From positions 1,856,001-1,920,000 of the forward strand of contig OY970323.1 in the NCBI GenBank assembly GCA_963716985.1: a stretch of DNA of 64,000 nucleotides, written 5' to 3'. Made by a program: the position numbers and the translations under genes. The notes beneath the pieces are model-generated. The model worked only from the letters and a program-made list of their open reading frames with translations, was not told where the DNA came from and did no database searches. Source of the DNA: an uncultured bacterium (GTDB lineage Bacteria; Chlamydiota; Chlamydiia; Chlamydiales; SM23-39). The number at the start of each line of letters is the position of its first letter. Position 1 is the first letter of the stretch. Positions 45,907 through 64,000 of this stretch are shown here, in pieces.

Positions 45907-47139
45907 CTACTCCTCGTAAAGGAGAAAGTTCTTCCTTTTTTCCACAAAGCATTCTCTTTCTTTCTGCTCGAAATGGATCATCTTCCAAACAACGTATTTT
46001 TCTTTTTCTATCATTTGCAGGATCTCTGCATTTCCATTGACGCGGCAAAACTGCCTCTTTTTTTCCGCGCTCAAATCGTGAAAATATTTTTGAATTTCTT
46101 TCGGATAAAGGGATTTCAAAAGTCCCAAAAGAGCATATTGAACGCTCAGCGGACGATAGCTTTTTTTGTCGGTAATCAGGATGTGCACGCCATAACAATC
46201 TAAGTTTTTAAACACGCCATAAAAAGGGCGAAAGGAAAAGGGTAAAAATTTGACTCCCGGAAGATTTTGCCGATTTAACTGCATAGCTAGCCTCACTCCG
46301 TCGATCCAAGGAGCCCCCACCACCTTAAAAGGAAGCGTATATCCAATCCCGATACTGACCAGGTCCAGCTCTCCCAAAATTCCCGTAGACGCATAATAGA
46401 GGGGCGTATCGGCTTCCGGAATATGCGGGCTTGTAGGAATCCAGAAAAGACCCGTGTCTTGATAGGTCATCTTCCTTTTCCATCCCTTCATGGGGATCAC
46501 CGTGAGACGGCATTTGATCTCATACTGGTCATTAAAATAATGGGCCAGCTCTCCGATCGTCATCCCATGGCAATAGGGAACGTTCACATACCCTAAAAAG
46601 GAGCGCCACTCTTCATGCAGCATAGGGCCATCGACTAAAGAACCTCCAAGAGGATTCGGCCGATCGAAGACCATTACTTCAACGTCCTGTTTTGCCGCTT
46701 CTTCCATCACGTAGAAAAGGGTAGTCGCATAGGTATAAGGACGGCAGCCGATCTCCTGTATGTCGAAAATGACGAGATCGATTCCTTCCAGCATCTTCTC
46801 CGTCGGCCGTCTTGTAGATCCGTAAAGACTATAGACGGGAATGCCTTCCTGCTCTTTTTCATGATCAATCTTTTCAGCTGCCAGAGCCGATCCCCGAATG
46901 CCATGTTCCGGAGAAAACAGAGCTACCACTTGGTAGTCTTTTGCATGTCTCTGGAGAAGCTCGAATGTCGTATTGAGAGAACTATTGACGCCCGTATGAT
47001 TGGTGACAAGGCCTACCTTTTTCTTTTTCAAAAGCTGCACATGTCCGTCCTCAAAAAAGACATCCACCCCCAAACGCACGCAGGGCGATGAAAAAAGAAA
47101 TGCATTCCAGAAAAAAAAGAAAAGAAAGAGTTTCTTCAT
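45907..47139 (-). CDS. DUF1343 / NamZ-like exo-beta-N-acetylmuramidase
   Basis: VGLVTNHTG, FSPEHGIRG, SLYG, FDIQEIG.R.YTY, DRPNP, HGMTIGELA; signal peptide from ATG 47139. Confidence 0.9.
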   Translation of the reverse strand: MKKLFLFFFFWNAFLFSSPCVRLGVDVFFEDGHVQLLKKKKVGLVTNHTGVNSSLNTTFELLQRHAKDYQVVALFSPEHGIRGSALAAEKIDHEKEQEGIPVYSLYGSTRRPTEKMLEGIDLVIFDIQEIGCRPYTYATTLFYVMEEAAKQDVEVMVFDRPNPLGGSLVDGPMLHEEWRSFLGYVNVPYCHGMTIGELAHYFNDQYEIKCRLTVIPMKGWKRKMTYQDTGLFWIPTSPHIPEADTPLYYASTGILGELDLVSIGIGYTLPFKVVGAPWIDGVRLAMQLNRQNLPGVKFLPFSFRPFYGVFKNLDCYGVHILITDKKSYRPLSVQYALLGLLKSLYPKEIQKYFHDLSAEKKRQFCRVNGNAEILQMIEKEKYVVWKMIHFEQKERECFVEKRKNFLLYEE

Positions 47140-47344
47140 ATATTTGATTGCGTGCAAACCCAGAGCTGCAGGGCCGGGGAAAAACGCGGCTTTTTTGTTT
47201 GAAAATAACATGTAACCACATTTTTTTGCCAAGTCAACGAAGGAACGATTCCTATTCGACCTCTTTTTTTCCCAAATGAAGAGAGGAAAAAACTTCTCTT
47301 TGAAAAAATAGAAATCTGCCCTACTCTTTGTAAAAACATCGAGA

Positions 47345-57040: not shown

Positions 57041-57069
57041 TTGACAGAAAGTTATTCTGAAGTCATTAT
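57041..57069 (+). promoter_or_regulatory. Putative sigma66 promoter, repeated at 57923-57951 and 58519-58547
   Basis: TTGACA-N17-CATTAT retained in all three copies although the spacer diverges. Confidence 0.5.
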
Positions 57070-57100
57070 TTTCCCCATAAATTTTAATCGCGAGGTGCAA

Positions 57101-57511
57101 ATGACAGCTACAGAAAGTTCTCCTTCATTGGGTTCAATTTTGAAAATAGCAGGGGTCGGTGGATGTGTCGTAGGAGGAACCCTCATGGGAGGTCCTGTCA
57201 TTGGTGTTGTGGGAGGTGCTGCCGGATTGACTGTTTTGGCAATAAACGCCATTTGTAAGGAAAAAAATGTTAGGAGTGTTGAAGAAAATAGTGCAACAGC
57301 TGTTGGGCTACTGATTAGCTGTACCATCAGTTTGATAAGCACTGTAGTTTTTCAAAATGCATCTTCTTCGGAATGTGGAAAAATGCACCAGAATTCCGAT
57401 AGTAATTTTTTTCAAGCAACATGTTATGGTTCTTCCGCCTTGTATTATGTGAGCATCGCGAGCGTAATTTATTTCATTGGAAGCGCCGCGATCTGGAAAT
57501 TTTTTCGTTAG
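57101..57511 (+). CDS. Small Gly-rich multi-TM protein, family A-like, copy 1
   Basis: GAGG RBS; GVGGCVVGGTLMGGPVIG; TM-Cx14C-TM; paralogs downstream. Confidence 0.75.
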   Translation: MTATESSPSLGSILKIAGVGGCVVGGTLMGGPVIGVVGGAAGLTVLAINAICKEKNVRSVEENSATAVGLLISCTISLISTVVFQNASSSECGKMHQNSDSNFFQATCYGSSALYYVSIASVIYFIGSAAIWKFFR

Positions 57512-57521
57512 GAGGATAAAA

Positions 57522-57854
57522 ATGAGCACAACAAATAGTGTTCTTTGTTTTTCCCCAATTAAAGAATGGCAAAATTTTAAAGAAAGCTACCAAGCATGGG
57601 GGCAAATACTTCCCAAAAGCATTAAGGAAAACGCTAAAATTCTGTTAATTGCAAATGCTGGTTTTTTGATTATAGCCGCAATTTTTGCATATATAGGCTT
57701 TCCAAACCCCGATGTACGGCTTGCTGTATTGGGTTCTTTTGGTATCATTCTTCTTTGCGACCTGGCATTTTGTTTTATCATGCAAGGTTTTCTCGTTTTA
57801 AGGATCGTTCAAGCATTTTGTCCTTTTTCTTTTTTAACGAAAGCTGATCGATAA
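57522..57854 (+). CDS. Small membrane protein with a bilobed hydrophobic region (partner gene)
   Basis: GGAGG RBS; two adjacent hydrophobic segments separated by GFPNPD. Confidence 0.7.
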   Translation: MSTTNSVLCFSPIKEWQNFKESYQAWGQILPKSIKENAKILLIANAGFLIIAAIFAYIGFPNPDVRLAVLGSFGIILLCDLAFCFIMQGFLVLRIVQAFCPFSFLTKADR

Positions 57855-57984
57855 GGCGTAGTGCAGTAGCAGAGCACTACGCGTCTCCCTATTACTCTGA
57901 ATTGCGACCAATCTGACCTTCCTTGACAGAAAGCTATTCCGGGTTCATTATTTTTCCCATAAATTTGAACCATGGAGTGTAATA

Positions 57985-58395
57985 ATGACAGCTACAGAAA
58001 GTTCTCCTTCATTAGGATCTATGTTTGGGATAGCCGGGGTCGGTGGATGTGTTGTTGGAGGAACCCTCATGGGAGGCCCTATCGTAGGTTTTTTTGCTGG
58101 TGCTGCCGGATTGACTGTTTTGGCAGTAAACGCCATTTATAAGGAAAAAAATGTTAGGAGTGTTGAAGAAAATAGTGCAACAGCTATTGGGCTACTGATT
58201 AGCTGTACCATCAGTTTGATAAGCACTGTAGTTTTTCAAAAAGCCTCTTCTTCGGAATGTGGAAAAATGCAACAGAATTCCGATAGTAATTTTTTCCAAG
58301 CAACATGTTATGGTTCTTCCGCCTTGTATTATGTGAGCATCGCGAGCGTAATTTATTTCTTTGGAAGCGCTGCGATCTGGAAATTATCTCATTAG
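57985..58395 (+). CDS. Family A-like membrane protein, copy 2
   Basis: 136 aa, close paralog of copy 1. Confidence 0.75.
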   Translation: MTATESSPSLGSMFGIAGVGGCVVGGTLMGGPIVGFFAGAAGLTVLAVNAIYKEKNVRSVEENSATAIGLLISCTISLISTVVFQKASSSECGKMQQNSDSNFFQATCYGSSALYYVSIASVIYFFGSAAIWKLSH

Positions 58396-58580
58396 AAGGA
58401 TCGTTCAAGCATTTTGTCCTTTTTCTTTTTTAACGAAAGCTGATCGATAAGGCGTAGTGCAGTAGCAGAGCACTACGCGTCTCCCTACTACTCTGAATTG
58501 CGACCAATCTGACCTTCCTTGACAGAAAGCTATTCCGGGTTCATTATTTTTCCCATAAATTTGAACCATGGAGTGTAATA

Positions 58581-58991
58581 ATGACAGCTACAGAAAGTTC
58601 TCCTTCATTAGGATCTATGTTTGGGATAGCCGGGGTCGGTGGATGTGTTGTTGGAGGAACCCTCATGGGAGGCCCTATCGTAGGTTTTTTTGCTGGTGCT
58701 GCCGGATTGACTGTTTTGGCAGTAAACGCCATTTATAAGGAAAAAAATGTTAGGAGTGTTGAAGAAAATAGTGCAACAGCTATTGGGCTACTGATTAGCT
58801 GTACCATCAGTTTGATAAGCACTGTAGTTTTTCAAAAAGCCTCTTCTTCGGAATGTGGAAAAATGCAACAGAATTCCGATAGTAATTTTTTCCAAGCAAC
58901 ATGTTATGGTTCTTCCGCCTTGTATTATGTGAGCATCGCGAGCGTAATTTATTTCTTTGGAAGCGCTGCGATCTGGAAATTATCTCATTAG
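58581..58991 (+). CDS. Family A-like membrane protein, copy 3
   Basis: Identical to copy 2. Confidence 0.75.
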   Translation: MTATESSPSLGSMFGIAGVGGCVVGGTLMGGPIVGFFAGAAGLTVLAVNAIYKEKNVRSVEENSATAIGLLISCTISLISTVVFQKASSSECGKMQQNSDSNFFQATCYGSSALYYVSIASVIYFFGSAAIWKLSH

Positions 58992-59001
58992 GAGGATAAA
59001 A

Positions 59002-59497
59002 ATGAGCATAGCAGCAAATAGTGTTCTTTGTTTTTCCCCAATTAAAGAATGGCAAAATTTTAAAGAGGGCTGTCAATCATTGGTCGGGTAGCCCAAGGGA
59101 ACTTCCCCCTTAGGCTCCCACGGATCCGTACGTGAAACTCTCGTTTCATACGGCTCTTATTATTCAGCAAGGAGGTTTCACCATTTTCCAATGCCCATAT
59201 AGCTGAGGATTGTTTTTCGCAACTTTCCCCAACAGATTCATGGCTCTTCCAAAGTGTCCTCTCATCTTTTTATACTTCCTTTTTACCCATCTCGTTAATT
59301 CCTCATTTACGTGATAAAGGACTGGTCTCATTTCAGATCTGAAAAATCTGCCATAGTAATTGATCCACCCTCGTACTATAGGATTGATTTCTCTGGCCAG
59401 TTCTTCCAACGTTTTCCGAGTGGCCAGATGCAATCTCCACTTCCTGATAGTCTCGTACATCTTCTTCTTTGCCTTATTGCTCACAGCTGATCGATAA
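59002..59497 (+). pseudogene. Second copy of the 57522 partner gene, broken by an intron remnant and a deletion
   Basis: MSIAANSVLCFSPIKEWQNFKE at 59002; its 3' end AGCTGATCGATAA reappears at 59485-59497. Confidence 0.75.
59083..59489 (-). mobile_element. 3' remnant of a group II intron (maturase domain X, DV, DVI), class D-like
   Basis: INPIVRGWINYYG and RWVKRKYK; DV GAGCCGTATGAAACGAGAGTTTCACGTACGGATC; ends CTACCCGAC. Confidence 0.9.
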
Positions 59498-59632
59498 AGT
59501 GCTGCGGCAATAGCAGAGCACTGGATCTTCATACTGCTCTGCAAACAATAGATGAACCACCAGGACTTTTTCCTTGAATTCAGTAGGAAAGAGCGATGAT
59601 CCAATTCATGCGCATTCCAGAATAGGCAATTC

Positions 59633-60768
59633 TTAGCTTTTTGAAGATGCGCCGTCGGGATAAATCCATGCGGAAATGATCGGAGGAAGCAATCCTATTG
59701 AACCTAAAGTTACGGCCCATCCCAGCTCTTTTGGAAAGGACACAAAAAAAGATAGAATAGCTGTCTGGATAGATTCTGGGCGCAGTTTAACTGGTTCCCA
59801 GAGCCCCCGTTTTCATCCCGGACGGTCGGATTTCCCGAATCCGGTTGGCGTTCTTGACTTTTCATAAAGGCGCCTTCCATTTCTTAGTGGGTTAGATAAC
59901 GTTAGCGCTTATCATCCCTACTAATATTGTTTGCACCCCTACTTCGATATGCTATTTGCTGACACCTTCCTGAGGCTCTGAGTCCCCTTGTTGCCAACAA
60001 TCTCATATCCATCAAGTACCGAGAGTTCCTTCGCCCGCACCATCAGGTATTAATCTGCATGCGGAATGATCTTTTTTTTTCATCATTTGAAAAGTCGTTA
60101 CACTTTCCTCATCGCTACTACGAACTCATGCGCCGATCCATCCTCCTCTTCTTGTCTTCGCTTGTACACTATTACAAGAGGTCTTTGCAGCTTATCGCTA
60201 ATTCTTGCCGGAAGATGGACCTTCCCGACTTTATCCTATAATTCTTTCATTAGGTGCTTGATCCCATATCCCGGTGGTATCTACATTGCTTTTGATCGTT
60301 TCTTCACGTAAATCATTGCCCTTCCCTGACGTACTAATAGGTCGGATTAACCACAACAACCCCTCCAACAACTTCTGGAAGGAAGACTCTTTCGGAACTG
60401 CAGATATTCTCTTATGTTCAGGCCCCTAATTTTGCTTGCCGTTCTGGTTGTTCCTACCAATGATTCTCAAGTGTCCTCATTAGCAGCCACGGCGTTTACA
60501 TCCAGGCTATACAAGCGTTGTTACCACCGCTTGTCTCGGATATGCTACTCATCCAAACCGATCAATTGATGAGGAGAGAACTTTCATCTCTCTAGAATTA
60601 TAATATTATCGGCCGCTACCAGTACGCAAAGAGCTACAAAAGCGATCTTTAGATTCAACGAGGCTCTTTTTTCGACAATTGTTATTCTTCCCTCAAAAGC
60701 TTTCATCCCGTGAGAAGAAGTATAAATCACGCATCCCAAAAAAACCCAACCACCAACAGCGATTAGGG
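59633..60768 (-). pseudogene. Family B membrane gene split by an ORF-less intron and 5'-truncated at IS607
   Basis: Exons join as LKIAFVAL|AILSFFVSFPKELGWAVTLGSIGLLPPIISAWIYPDGASSKS*. Confidence 0.75.
59763..60629 (-). ncRNA. ORF-less group II intron, 867 nt
   Basis: 5' TTGCG..GCGGCCGA; DIII-like GTAGTAGCGATGAGG..GCGAAGG; DV-like ACCGGATTCGGGAAATCCGACCGTCCGGGAT; ends CTATCCAGAC; removal restores the reading frame. Confidence 0.85.
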
Positions 60769-60840: not shown

Positions 60841-61452
60841 ATGAAAATAAGTATTGGCAAGGCGGCTTCCCTCCTTGGAGTTTCAAAGGATACCCTTCGA
60901 AGATGGGAAAGAGAGGGCAAGATCCATTCCAAAAGAACCGTCAAAGGTCACAGACGATATGATGACGGTGAACTCACCGGCCTGAAGCGAAGGGGCAGTC
61001 CGGACAACAAAATCACGCTCGGATATGCCAGAGTCTCTTCCTATGATCAAAAAGAGGATCTCCAAAGACAAGTAGCGCTTCTTGAATCCTACTGTGCTGC
61101 CAATGGCTGGTCTTGTGAAATTCTCCAAGATCTCGGATCGGGTCTCAACTATCAAAAAAAAGGTTTGAAGCTTTTGATCAAAAGAATATGCTCTTCTGAT
61201 ATTCAAAGGCTGGTGTTGACCCACAAAGATCGCCTCCTTAGATTTGGATCGGAGCTGATCTTTTCACTCTGTGAGCAATTTGGCGTGGAGGTAGTGATCA
61301 TCAATGCTTCGGAAAACACCTCTTTTGAAGATGACCTTGTCCAAGATGTTTTGGAGATCATAACGGTATTCTCGGCAAGACTCTACGGATCAAGATCAAA
61401 AAAGAATAAAAAACTTATAGAGTCTCTGAAAAATGCAGCAGAAAGATTGTAA
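60841..61452 (+). CDS. tnpA: IS607 serine recombinase transposase
   Basis: MerR-like HTH (LGVS..TLRRW..GHRRY), GYARVSS, DLGSGLNY, DRLLRFG, FSARLYG. Confidence 0.96.
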   Translation: MKISIGKAASLLGVSKDTLRRWEREGKIHSKRTVKGHRRYDDGELTGLKRRGSPDNKITLGYARVSSYDQKEDLQRQVALLESYCAANGWSCEILQDLGSGLNYQKKGLKLLIKRICSSDIQRLVLTHKDRLLRFGSELIFSLCEQFGVEVVIINASENTSFEDDLVQDVLEIITVFSARLYGSRSKKNKKLIESLKNAAERL

Positions 61453-62959
61453 AAAAACCTTCACCTACCAAACAAGGCTCCCGATTCTTACCGAAAAAGA
61501 GGATCTTTTTCTATCTCAAACAGCAACTCTTCTCTCAAAAGTGGAAAGAACTCTTTTTGCAGATTTTTCCAAGGCCAAAAAACTCAACGATCTCAAATCC
61601 ATCTATCTTGAAAAATTTTCCATCACGGCAAGACAGTTCAATTCTTGCCGGATCTCTCTGGAAGGAAAAATCCGATCTTACCAAGAGGGACTGAAAGAAA
61701 GAATCTCTCTTTTGAAAACAAAAATCCAAAAACTGGAAAAGCATGTAAAAAGCTGCAAAGATCCCTCTAAAAAGCATCAAAAAAAGCGCAGGCTTTTCAT
61801 CTTGAAAACCACTCAAAAAAATCTGGAAAAAGATCAAGAAGAGGGAAAGGTCCGTATCTGTTTCGGGGGGAAGAATCTTTTTCATCAACAATTCCATCTC
61901 GAAGAAAATGGTTTTACTCAATTTTCCGAGTGGAAAAAGACCTGGCAAGAAAAAAGAAACAATCAGTTTTTCCTCATAGGATCCAAAGATGAAACAGCCG
62001 GCAATCAAAGCTGCCAACTGTCGAAAGAAGGAGGCCTCTTCACTCTCCACCTTCGTCTGCCCAATGGTTTTTCCGAAAAAACCCTTGCGATCAAGGGAAT
62101 CGATTTTTCCTACGGAAAAGAAGAGATCGAACAGGCTCTTGAAGAAAACGAAAAGAGAAGAAATCTCCGATTGGCAAAACAGCCCTATACAGATATTGGA
62201 AGAGCCCTCAACTATCGATTTTTAAAAGACAAAAAAGGCTGGAGGTTCTTCATCAGCCTAGAACAAAGATCTCCCGCAAAAAAAAGCAAAAATGCATTGG
62301 GTACGATCGGGATCGATATCAACGCCAATCATCTGGCCCTAGCAGAAACGGATCGATTCGGAAACATCATTGAAAAAAAGAGCATTCCCTGTTCCACCTA
62401 TGGCAAAAGCACAAACGCTCGTCTTGCCATTATCGGAGATGTCAGCAAAGAGATCGTAGAATATGCCCTTCAAAAAGAAAAACCCCTTGTTCTGGAAGAT
62501 CTGAACTTCCAAAAGAAAAAACAAACCCTGAGAGAATCCAATAACAAATATAGCCGGCTCCTCTCCTCTTTTTCCTACAGCCAAATCCTAAGCCACATAG
62601 AATCTAAAGCTTTTAGAGAGGGAATCGAAATCTACCATGTAAATCCCGCCTATACAACAATCATAGGAGAGGTAAAATTCACAAAAAGATATGGGCTGTC
62701 GAAACATCATGCGGCAGCTTTCGTCATCGCAAGACGAAAAGATGGTTTTTCAGAAAAGCCTCCTCGATATCTAGAAATAGATACAGAAAACTCCAAGTCC
62801 GCTTTTTCCCAACCCGTGTGGAAGACGGAAAAACACGTTTGGTGTTTTTATAGGGCGCTAAGTAAGAAGAAAAAAGCGGCACATGCAGTGCATTTACCGA
62901 CGAAAAGATCCTCAAAACAATTGAGAGACAGCCGGAAGGCTTCGGTAGATTATGGGTGA
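61433..62959 (+). CDS. tnpB: TnpB-related protein (508 aa, no Zn finger, His at RuvC-III)
   Basis: GIDIN (RuvC-I), VLEDL (RuvC-II), VNPAYTT..HHAAAFVIARR. Confidence 0.88.
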   Translation: MQQKDCKKTFTYQTRLPILTEKEDLFLSQTATLLSKVERTLFADFSKAKKLNDLKSIYLEKFSITARQFNSCRISLEGKIRSYQEGLKERISLLKTKIQKLEKHVKSCKDPSKKHQKKRRLFILKTTQKNLEKDQEEGKVRICFGGKNLFHQQFHLEENGFTQFSEWKKTWQEKRNNQFFLIGSKDETAGNQSCQLSKEGGLFTLHLRLPNGFSEKTLAIKGIDFSYGKEEIEQALEENEKRRNLRLAKQPYTDIGRALNYRFLKDKKGWRFFISLEQRSPAKKSKNALGTIGIDINANHLALAETDRFGNIIEKKSIPCSTYGKSTNARLAIIGDVSKEIVEYALQKEKPLVLEDLNFQKKKQTLRESNNKYSRLLSSFSYSQILSHIESKAFREGIEIYHVNPAYTTIIGEVKFTKRYGLSKHHAAAFVIARRKDGFSEKPPRYLEIDTENSKSAFSQPVWKTEKHVWCFYRALSKKKKAAHAVHLPTKRSSKQLRDSRKASVDYG

Positions 62960-63058
62960 AAAACCATACGCGAATCGCCAACAAAACTGCTTGGTTGGCG
63001 TATCAATGCAAATTTTTAAAATACCCGTATTTGCATAGATTTTTAGTAGCGGTTTAGA

Positions 63059-63131
63059 TGAGACTTGAAGGATTTGAACCTTCGACCTACTCCTTAAAAG
63101 GGAGTTGCTCTACCAGCTGAGCTAAAGTCTC
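63059..63131 (-). tRNA. tRNA-Lys(TTT)
   Basis: GAGACTT..AAGTCTCA acceptor stem, loop CTTTTAA, GGTTCAAATCC. Confidence 0.95.
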
Positions 63132-63143
63132 TAAACATAAAAT

Positions 63144-63218
63144 TGACCCCAAGGGGATTCGAACCCCTGTTGACGGAATGAAAATCCGGTGTCCTAGACC
63201 TGGCTAGACGATGGGGCC
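63144..63218 (-). tRNA. tRNA-Glu(TTC)
   Basis: GGCCCCA..TGGGGTCA acceptor stem, loop TTTTCAT, GGTTCGAATCC. Confidence 0.95.
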
Positions 63219-63227
63219 ATCATTCTA

Positions 63228-63569
63228 TCGACAGAGCTGCCCTCATTCCTTTAGAGATGGAAGAGAAGCTCTGCTCCTTTATTGTTAAAGTTTACAAACG
63301 GGGGGTTAATTCCCCCTAGCAGTTACCTGCAATCTCCGGTTTCCCGGGTAAAGTTCCCCTCGCCAAAGTTATGGAACGGTTTTAAATGTTAGCGGCACTG
63401 GTTTAACCCGTACGCCTGTTTAACCACTAACCGCAGAGCTTGGAACTGATGCGGCATCCCAAGGTGCCTATATATTCGCTCCTAACGTAGTCTCAAACGT
63501 AGAGACTTAAGGCTGGCCAACTTCATGCTTGATTACGCAAGCATCTCCCTTCAGGGAGTGGTGATTGGC
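63228..63569 (-). ncRNA. Orphan HEARO / IscB-type omega RNA in a non-autonomous IS200/IS605-like element
   Basis: Ordered motifs GCCAATCACC, CCCTGAAGGG, GCTTG, GTTGGCCAGCC, CTACGTT, ATAGGCACC, GGATGC, CAGTTCC, GCTCTGCG, TTAAACAG, CAGTG, ATAACTTTGGCGAGG; right-end hairpin with CTAAAG; no ORF. Confidence 0.82.
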
Positions 63570-63623
63570 CTTTAGTTAAAAGACAGACTAATTTTAAACT
63601 CTTTCCTCTTTTCCCACAAGGAA

Positions 63624-64000
63624 TTAGATCTCAATGATCTCCTTTTCCTTGGAAGTGCAAATCGTATCGCTCTCCTTGCAGAACTGATCGGTCAGCTCTT
63701 GAATTTTCTTTTCGAGCCTCTTGACGCCATCTTCGGAAAGGTCCCCGCTCGATTTTTCCTTCTTCACCTGTTCATTGTATTTGCGTCGAATTTCTCGCAG
63801 CACAATCTTGGTATTCTCTGTTCTTTTTTTGCACTCTTTGACCATCTCTTTTCGAATCGACTCGTCCATCGGAGGAACAAGAACGCGCACCACATTGTGA
63901 TCTACTTGTGTCTGCACGTTGAGATTCGCACCATCAATGGCCTTCGCAATAGCATTGCAATTCTGGCGATCAAATGGCGTAATGACGATCTGTCTTGACT
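63624..64000 (-). CDS. frr: Ribosome recycling factor (3' part; runs off the window)
   Basis: RQIVITPFD, VPPM.E..RKEMVK, REIRR, SED..KRLEKKIQELTD. Confidence 0.95.
   Translation of the reverse strand, partial: SRQIVITPFDRQNCNAIAKAIDGANLNVQTQVDHNVVRVLVPPMDESIRKEMVKECKKRTENTKIVLREIRRKYNEQVKKEKSSGDLSEDGVKRLEKKIQELTDQFCKESDTICTSKEKEIIEI

What the first reader, a model, noticed from the sequence alone, without database searches (positions are those of the whole stretch)
63228..63600. Orphan IscB-type omega (HEARO) RNA embedded in the frr-tRNA-Glu-tRNA-Lys unit
Seen: about 340 bp on the minus strand carrying the HEARO motif series in order. The first stem reads GCCAA/TTGGC where I recall GTCAA/TTGAC as usual, a compensatory double change suggesting the fold is maintained. 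The scaffold runs almost directly into an IS200/605-type right-end hairpin (CAGAGCT..CTAAAG..AGCTCTG), so iscB is absent. ATGA follows just before tRNA-Glu. Known: IscB omega RNAs take their guide from the 5' flank, standalone copies can act in trans, and ATGA-like TAMs occur. Inference: it is co-oriented with frr and the tRNAs, so it would be well transcribed and released by RNase P cleavage at tRNA-Glu. That would give a host-expressed guide RNA (guide about TAGTCTGTCTTTTAACTAAAG) for an IscB/IsrB elsewhere, or a domesticated RNA. With the TnpB element, two different OMEGA systems flank the same tRNA pair.
Basis: partly seen in the sequence, partly recalled or inferred. Interest (0 to 1): 0.8.

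Follow-up and report, generated by a model that had tools for sequence, protein, structure and literature searches.

The report
Stranded guide RNA in tRNA leader
A gene-less copy of a known RNA-guided transposon has landed between the promoter and the cell's only glutamate and lysine tRNA genes, so it is probably transcribed with them; it seems to have lost its ability to jump but kept most of its RNA fold, and whether it still guides a nuclease is untested.

Summary
Confirmed: a HEARO/omega RNA (131.6 bits, cut-off 83) in a 346-nt gene-less ISC element (63224-63569, minus strand) inserted at N|ATGA, 5 nt before tRNA-Glu. It is not an orphan: the genome has 11 HEARO matches and two intact-looking iscB genes. 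This scan found the family before on other DNA of this genome, at start codons; this is the one copy at a tRNA. It sits 21 nt behind a promoter-like site shared with the empty site of a same-genus relative, predicting a guide of about 15 nt, and ahead of the only tRNA-Glu and tRNA-Lys genes. The predicted transposase-recognition motifs are altered at both ends, yet all 60 nested pairs hold, three through double changes. Against guide function: one of four nexus-pseudoknot pairs is broken only here, no self or above-chance viral target exists, and there are no RNA data. Best reading (0.5): an immobilised passenger kept folded and read-through because the host needs the tRNAs. Rivals: trans-homing guide (0.25), neutral relic (0.15), host decoy or regulator (0.1). 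The neighbour is IS607, an independent insertion. New variant of a known kind; interest 0.42.

The parts
63624..64000 (-). 3' part of frr (183 aa; runs past the window end), last gene of rpsB-tsf-pyrH-frr
   Evidence: ORF; gene names are my reading of the translations and the DNA, no family scan run
63591..63619 (-). Predicted promoter of the tRNA pair, TTGTGG-17-TAAAAT; predicted start near 63584
   Evidence: Score 16 in my scan, reached by 64 of 3000 random windows; 23 of 29 relatives score 15 or more before tRNA-Glu against 225 of 3000 background; 35 of 43 columns identical with the G001 empty site. Not flagged by the stricter tool scan.
63570..63584 (-). Predicted guide, about 15 nt of host tRNA leader
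   Evidence: Inference from promoter position; IscB guides come from the 5' flank. This leader is 11 nt longer than in G001.
63224..63569 (-). Gene-less ISC element (346 nt)
   Evidence: Ends align with five other full gene-less copies in the genome
63318..63569 (-). Omega RNA scaffold (Rfam core 63348-63569 plus two 3' hairpins shared with the iscB-bearing copies)
   Evidence: 87% identical to both iscB-linked omega RNAs
63516..63569 (-). 5' stem region with three double-compensated pairs (63568/63517, 63559/63543, 63543/63526); first bases are the transposon-encoded motif, GTCA changed to GCCA
63356..63451 (-). Nexus pseudoknot, 63451-63448 with 63359-63356; pair 63450/63357 is A x G
   Evidence: That pair is C-G 12, T-A 8, A-T 2 in the 22 other copies that cover it; same CCCC/GGGG element is essential in OgeuIscB
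63292..63316 (-). Terminator-like G-C hairpin with a T-run broken by G
   Evidence: 4 T in 8 nt, lowest (tied with one) of 15 gene-less copies; not called a terminator
63224..63280 (-). TAM-adjacent end: SD-like AAAGGAG and long hairpin; the T-rich DNA-guide arm is replaced by GGCA at 63241-63238
   Evidence: Only 1 of 42 aligned ends with this replacement, one other has it deleted; 15 differences from the iscB copy's end
63219..63223 (-). Target motif ATGA(T); also opens a 9-codon ORF over tRNA-Glu
   Evidence: 22 of 23 ends in the genome abut ATGA, 19 of them ATGAA
63144..63218 (-). tRNA-Glu(TTC), only copy in the genome
63059..63131 (-). tRNA-Lys(TTT), only tRNA-Lys found in the genome

Best explanation
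A gene-less ISC (IscB-family IS200/IS605) element was pasted by a Y1 transposase at N|ATGA in the leader of the essential tRNA-Glu/tRNA-Lys transcript. Shown: identity, ends, site, altered end motifs, kept helices. Inferred: it then lost the DNA motifs that the transposase reads and became fixed. Every tRNA-Glu/Lys transcript from the upstream promoter must run through it, so the cell makes about 15 nt of leader plus omega RNA, and RNase P would cut it off at tRNA-Glu. Selection acts mainly for the host: the 350-nt untranslated leader stays compactly folded and readable through (weaker T-run, zipped 3' hairpin), while parts needed only for jumping or cutting erode. It may still load the genome's IscB, but its only natural target is its own empty site.
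For: Sole tRNA-Glu and tRNA-Lys, no good internal promoter (best internal score 14). Promoter-like site shared with the empty site. DNA-guide arm replaced in 1 of 42 ends; mutating that guide abolishes excision in ISGst2 (passage). 13 rare states, 0 of 60 nested pairs broken, 3 double changes; with the pseudoknot 1 of 64 broken; simulation P(at most 1 broken and at least 2 doubles) 3e-4, P(at least 3 doubles) 1e-5. The one broken pair is the tertiary one that cleavage needs. T-run lowest of 15 (tied), fewest unpaired bases in the last 60 nt of 12 gene-less copies. Rho and RNase P RNA are present. No target found.
Against: No RNA data. 63 of 64 near-invariant unpaired positions are also kept, which fits IscB binding as well (about 3 hits expected, 1 seen; not significant). 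The rpsF copy also has 8 private states and 0 broken pairs, so single-copy sister lineages exist and some changes may predate insertion. Whole-element folding energy per base is unremarkable. The rpsF copy keeps a 5-T run before a gene presumed essential, so the T-run argument is weak. Pairs were defined on this copy. The transposase pairing rule (IS608 type) is recalled, only partly backed. One contig of run X3 hints at a differently built allele in a near-identical strain.
Confidence: 0.5

Rival explanations
1. Transposase-independent homing unit: the abundant RNA loads IscB in trans and cuts element-free alleles (leader plus ATGA) that enter by recombination, so the element spreads by repair, and the fold is kept for IscB.
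Against: Broken pseudoknot pair; target is ATGAT where 19 of 23 ends have ATGAA; the one same-genus empty site has TTGA and a different leader, so it is no target; HEARO nuclease MG35-1 prefers 24-nt guides; the X3 letters were not shown and made no joint with the upstream flank.
Confidence: 0.25
2. Neutral relic: the compensated pairs were inherited from an unsampled donor lineage or made by template-switch mutation between stem arms; nothing selects on the RNA now.
For: Shares states with the rpsF and C1:1049 kb copies; the 3' end changes are clustered and make the arms more complementary, the pattern that template switching leaves (passages); other gene-less copies are visibly decaying.
Against: The GCCAA/TTGGC form was not found in any real element elsewhere; the shared G-to-T change is uncompensated in the 1049 kb copy but compensated twice here; three separate helices are involved.
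Confidence: 0.15
3. Host-domesticated RNA: a decoy that soaks up IscB, or a guide for defence or gene control.
For: Predicted high expression from a tRNA promoter, IscB-binding fold kept, cleavage-critical pair weakened, mobility lost.
Against: No self target: best TAM-proximal match 7 nt among 21,538 ATGA sites; viral matches are 3 distinct sequences against 1 and 0 for controls, none extending; not found at this site in 400 other genomes searched; both IscB keep their catalytic motifs.
Confidence: 0.1

Closest known systems
ISC transposons with N|ATGA target (ISC1-1_MA, ISC2-1_HM, ISC2-1_MS; Kapitonov et al. 2016, PMC4810608, passages and Table 1 rows)
   Same: Same target, subterminal hairpins, no sign of a target duplication, non-autonomous
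   Different: No iscB; sits in a tRNA leader; end motifs altered
PATEs that encode omega RNAs (Meers et al., 10.1101/2023.03.14.532601, passages)
   Same: Gene-less, would need nuclease and transposase in trans; guide made by transcription from outside the element
   Different: IscB type rather than the TnpB-type examples in the passages read; predicted immobile; both RNA ends predicted from host tRNA promoter and RNase P
Standalone omega RNAs acting with IscB in trans (Altae-Tran et al. 2021; paper not held; seen only as cited in PMC9581776)
   Same: Standalone HEARO scaffold with related iscB elsewhere in the genome
   Different: Function here untested; one nexus-pseudoknot pair broken
TldR / domesticated OMEGA systems (PMC13565253, passages)
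   Same: OMEGA part that has left its mobile life
   Different: No nuclease-dead partner, no host target, not conserved in relatives

Membership tests
HEARO / IscB omega RNA (RF02033) | Full covariance-model match above the gathering score | tested here: met
   131.6 bits against 83, model 1-211
HEARO / IscB omega RNA (RF02033) | Nested helices intact | tested here: met
   0 of 60 pairs broken; pairs defined on this copy, all valid in the family majority
HEARO / IscB omega RNA (RF02033) | Intact 4-bp nexus pseudoknot | tested here: not met
   C-G, A x G, U-G, C-G; 21 of the 22 other copies that cover it have all four pairs. Effect of one mismatch unknown.
HEARO / IscB omega RNA (RF02033) | iscB directly downstream | tested here: not met
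Gene-less ISC / IS200-IS605 PATE | Inserted at the family target without duplication, empty site in a relative | tested here: inconclusive
   ATGA follows the end; G001 is empty but has TTGA and an 11-nt shorter leader, so the junction is not proven to the base
Gene-less ISC / IS200-IS605 PATE | Multiple dispersed copies with shared ends | tested here: met
   11 HEARO matches, 23 TAM-side ends; same design in relatives
Gene-less ISC / IS200-IS605 PATE | Functional ends: DNA guide pairs with the target motif | tested here: not met
   Guide arm GGCA instead of TTTC-like; 5' motif GCCA. Pairing rule recalled, principle; no assay.
Gene-less ISC / IS200-IS605 PATE | Cognate Y1 transposase in the genome | tested here: inconclusive
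   4 Y1 matches at 3 places: two identical IS200-type genes with unrelated ends and a group II intron-like end at their start, one frameshifted gene with a family-like hairpin before ATAA
Standalone trans-acting omega RNA | Intact related IscB elsewhere | tested here: met
   Two 442-aa ORFs, RRXRR + HNH, NF040563 above cut-off, catalytic motifs align with solved IscBs
Standalone trans-acting omega RNA | Expressed, loaded, and guides cleavage | not testable with these tools
   No RNA run held more than 0.06 of the words
Domesticated OMEGA (TldR-like) | Conserved locus in relatives and a host or invader target | tested here: not met

The most novel reading that the evidence does not exclude
The host has tamed this omega RNA into an abundant decoy: made from a tRNA promoter with a promoter-defined 15-nt guide, cut free by RNase P, unable to jump, still folded for IscB binding but weakened at the cleavage-critical pseudoknot and without a target, so that it titrates IscB away from the genome's other ISC copies.
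Probability: 0.08. Interest if true: 0.75.

Novelty: new variant of a known kind. Interest (0 to 1): 0.42.

Why it matters
Standalone omega RNAs and N|ATGA ISC elements are known. This copy is useful because host machinery would define both ends of the RNA (tRNA promoter, RNase P), and because DNA-level and RNA-level constraints have come apart: transposase motifs are lost while helices are compensated. It is a natural test of what keeps an omega RNA folded after mobility ends: the host's tRNA supply, homing in trans, or a decoy role. I found no report of an omega RNA in a tRNA leader in the listings of four library searches; most subscription papers are not in that library.

Tried and rejected
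(1) Phage target: guide plus ATGA matched 9 viral contigs, which are 3 distinct sequences; none extends past 15 nt; two control patterns gave 1 and 0. Read as chance. Plasmids and named phages were not searched. (2) Self target: best seed 7 nt, best total 12 of 16. (3) Idea that the 3' end changed to avoid mispairing with the tRNA acceptor stem: most of the 40 family ends leave it about 0.97 paired, as does ours; rejected. In the full natural transcript the stem was predicted only 0.49 paired, a limit of long-range folding models. (4) Same insertion elsewhere: 3 other pattern matches in 401 genomes were ordinary spacers without HEARO; no tRNA abuts any of 47 other HEARO loci, the nearest lie more than 1 kb away. 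(5) Close relatives in metagenomes: only two 52% frr relatives. (7) A new -10 box made at the 3' junction (TAGAAT, 63227-63222) has a poor -35 and would start inside tRNA-Glu; rejected. (8) The tool promoter scan missed the upstream site because TTGTGG matches 3 of 6. (9) The global alignment of filled and empty sites misplaces the flank; the local one was used. (10) The all-column covariation list is mostly noise; only pair 120-213 was used. (11) Runs X1 and X2 both have a contig starting at 63621, and X1 has one different letter at 63549 in one low-depth contig; not interpretable.

Full report
Observation. The Rfam HEARO model matches window 63348-63569 on the minus strand from first to last position, 131.6 bits against a cut-off of 83. 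Downstream come two small hairpins, a G-C hairpin with a broken T-run, a long terminal hairpin, ATGAT, tRNA-Glu and tRNA-Lys. There is no iscB in it. Public DNA contigs repeat the private letters exactly (X1 63209-63496, X4 63317-63480), and one X1 contig bridges the 5' junction; X1 may be the source sample.

Family. The 2.07-Mb genome has 11 HEARO matches, 9 above the cut-off, and 23 TAM-side ends. 22 of the 23 abut ATGA (19 ATGAA, 2 ATGAT, 1 ATGAG) and 20 open reading frames of 79 aa or more; ours opens 9 codons over tRNA-Glu. Earlier notes of this scan reported the same counts for other copies and pointed to Kapitonov et al., whose N|ATGA ISC families I checked in passages. Two copies carry iscB: 442 aa, RRXRR and HNH domains, guided_IscB 434 and 438 bits, catalytic motifs in place. 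Their omega RNAs are 87% identical to ours. Five other full gene-less copies share our design (omega RNA, G-C hairpin with T-run, end), as do copies in relatives; 13 of 61 genomes of the family, counting this one, have HEARO. So this is a gene-less mobile family, not a local deletion. A cognate transposase is not evident. That the host is an environmental chlamydia comes from the earlier notes; I did not test it.

Site. Of 40 relatives searched I read the tRNA-Glu spacer in 26; none shows the element (no end hit in those loci). A junction pattern matched 4 of 401 genomes of the order; the 3 others have no HEARO. The same-genus genome G001 is empty and shares 35 of 43 columns of the upstream flank, including TTGTRG-17-TAMAAT. 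23 of 29 relatives have a promoter-like site of score 15 or more before tRNA-Glu, against 7.5% of random windows; the stricter tool scan did not flag ours. The element begins 21 nt after the -10 box. With the usual 6-7 nt to the start (recalled), the guide is about 15 nt, matching 14-15 nt for OrufIscB and 16-17 nt for OgeuIscB, though MG35-1 prefers 24 (passages). Our leader is 11 nt longer than G001's, and G001 has TTGA rather than ATGA, so its site is no target and the junction is not proven to the base. These are the only tRNA-Glu and tRNA-Lys among 41 tRNA genes, no internal promoter scores above 14, and RNase P RNA and Rho are present. Transcription through the element and release by RNase P are therefore expected but not shown.

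Mobility. Read on the opposite strand the family fits the IS608-type rule (recalled; principle in Meers et al.): target TCAT with guide GAAA, end TGAC with guide CAAG. In our copy the first guide arm is GGCA on the top strand, the only such case in 42 ends (21 TTTC, 6 TTTT; one other end has it deleted), and the end motif is changed at its invariant A. The 3' end differs from the iscB copy's end at 15 places, against 1-5 for the other copies of the same subtype that keep an omega RNA; several lone ends are as diverged. Mutating this guide abolished excision in ISGst2. I infer that the copy is immobile and that these changes arose in place.

Fold. Against 23 other copies the 252-nt core has 13 rare states. 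None of 60 nested pairs is broken and three are double changes (2/53, 11/27, 27/44, five sites in all). The GCCAA/TTGGC form was absent from viral contigs (0 against 46 canonical) and gave one chance match in the GTDB collection, where no canonical control could be run. 63 of 64 near-invariant unpaired positions are kept. But pair 120-213, which covaries perfectly in 22 copies (C-G 12, T-A 8, A-T 2), is A x G here alone. It lies in the four-pair nexus pseudoknot, whose full disruption abolished editing by OgeuIscB (passage). With it included, random placement of 13 changes gives at most one break with two or more doubles in 3 of 10,000 trials. Cautions: the pairs were defined on this copy; the rpsF copy is also unbroken with 8 private states; template switching can make compensations without selection (passages). 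The T-run is the shortest of 15 copies, tied with one, and the last 60 nt are the most paired of 12; both are weak signs of selection for read-through. Protection of the tRNA acceptor stem was tested and rejected.

Targets. No self site has more than a 7-nt seed. Viral matches are three sequences, at control level. This hints at another allele in a close strain, but the letters were not shown and formed no joint with the upstream flank.

Neighbour. 60841-62959 is an IS607 transposase (NF033518, 220 bits) with a TnpB-like gene below the family cut-off, ending about 7 nt from tRNA-Lys on the other strand. It is a separate insertion; nothing links the two.

Verdict. It is a member of the HEARO RNA family by model score and works like a gene-less ISC element that has been stranded in an essential tRNA leader. 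I favour a passenger kept folded for the host's sake (0.5) over a live homing guide (0.25), a neutral relic (0.15) or a domesticated decoy or regulator (0.1). Standalone omega RNAs are known (citing a paper I could not read); the tRNA-leader setting did not appear in the listings, nor in this scan's notes. New variant of a known kind, interest 0.42.

Noticed in passing
window 60841-62959 (+), end near 63052: IS607 element (serine recombinase plus 508-aa TnpB-like protein, weak Cas12f2 similarity, third RuvC motif reads HHAAAF) inserted about 7 nt past tRNA-Lys, where G001 has a long hairpin; two partial end copies at C1:1756 kb and 1662 kb.
   Followed up: partly
G000:C1:35378-35759 (L008): A gene-less copy of a second omega RNA subtype lies 22 nt behind a near-consensus promoter TTGATT-17-TATAAT, which would also give a guide of 15-16 nt.
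   Followed up: no
window 63570-63580: The 11 nt that this leader has in excess over G001 resemble the AT-rich stretch before the element's own 3' end; could be a remnant of an earlier insertion or chance.
   Followed up: no
G000:C1:757416 and 1970077 (L014, L015): Two identical IS200-type tnpA genes have a group II intron-like 3' end and maturase tail directly at their start; one has a further insertion in its right end.
   Followed up: no
window 59083-59880 (-): Group II intron domains V-VI (56.6 bits) with fragments of an intron-encoded protein upstream.
   Followed up: no
window 57041-58991 (+): Three tandem near-copies of a 136-156 aa glycine-rich, probably membrane ORF, two of them identical.
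   Followed up: no
window about 47130-47200 (-) (C1:1903201): A lone, decayed 3' end of the same ISC family directly before the start codon of a 410-aa ORF.
   Followed up: partly
all 23 ends in G000: Many start-codon copies keep only the 3' end with its SD-like AAAGGAG and have lost the omega RNA, the reverse of the tRNA copy.
   Followed up: partly
run X3, record 18 (window 63058-63223): Identity stops exactly at the ATGA boundary with 80 unlaid letters upstream; possible element-free or differently filled allele.
   Followed up: partly
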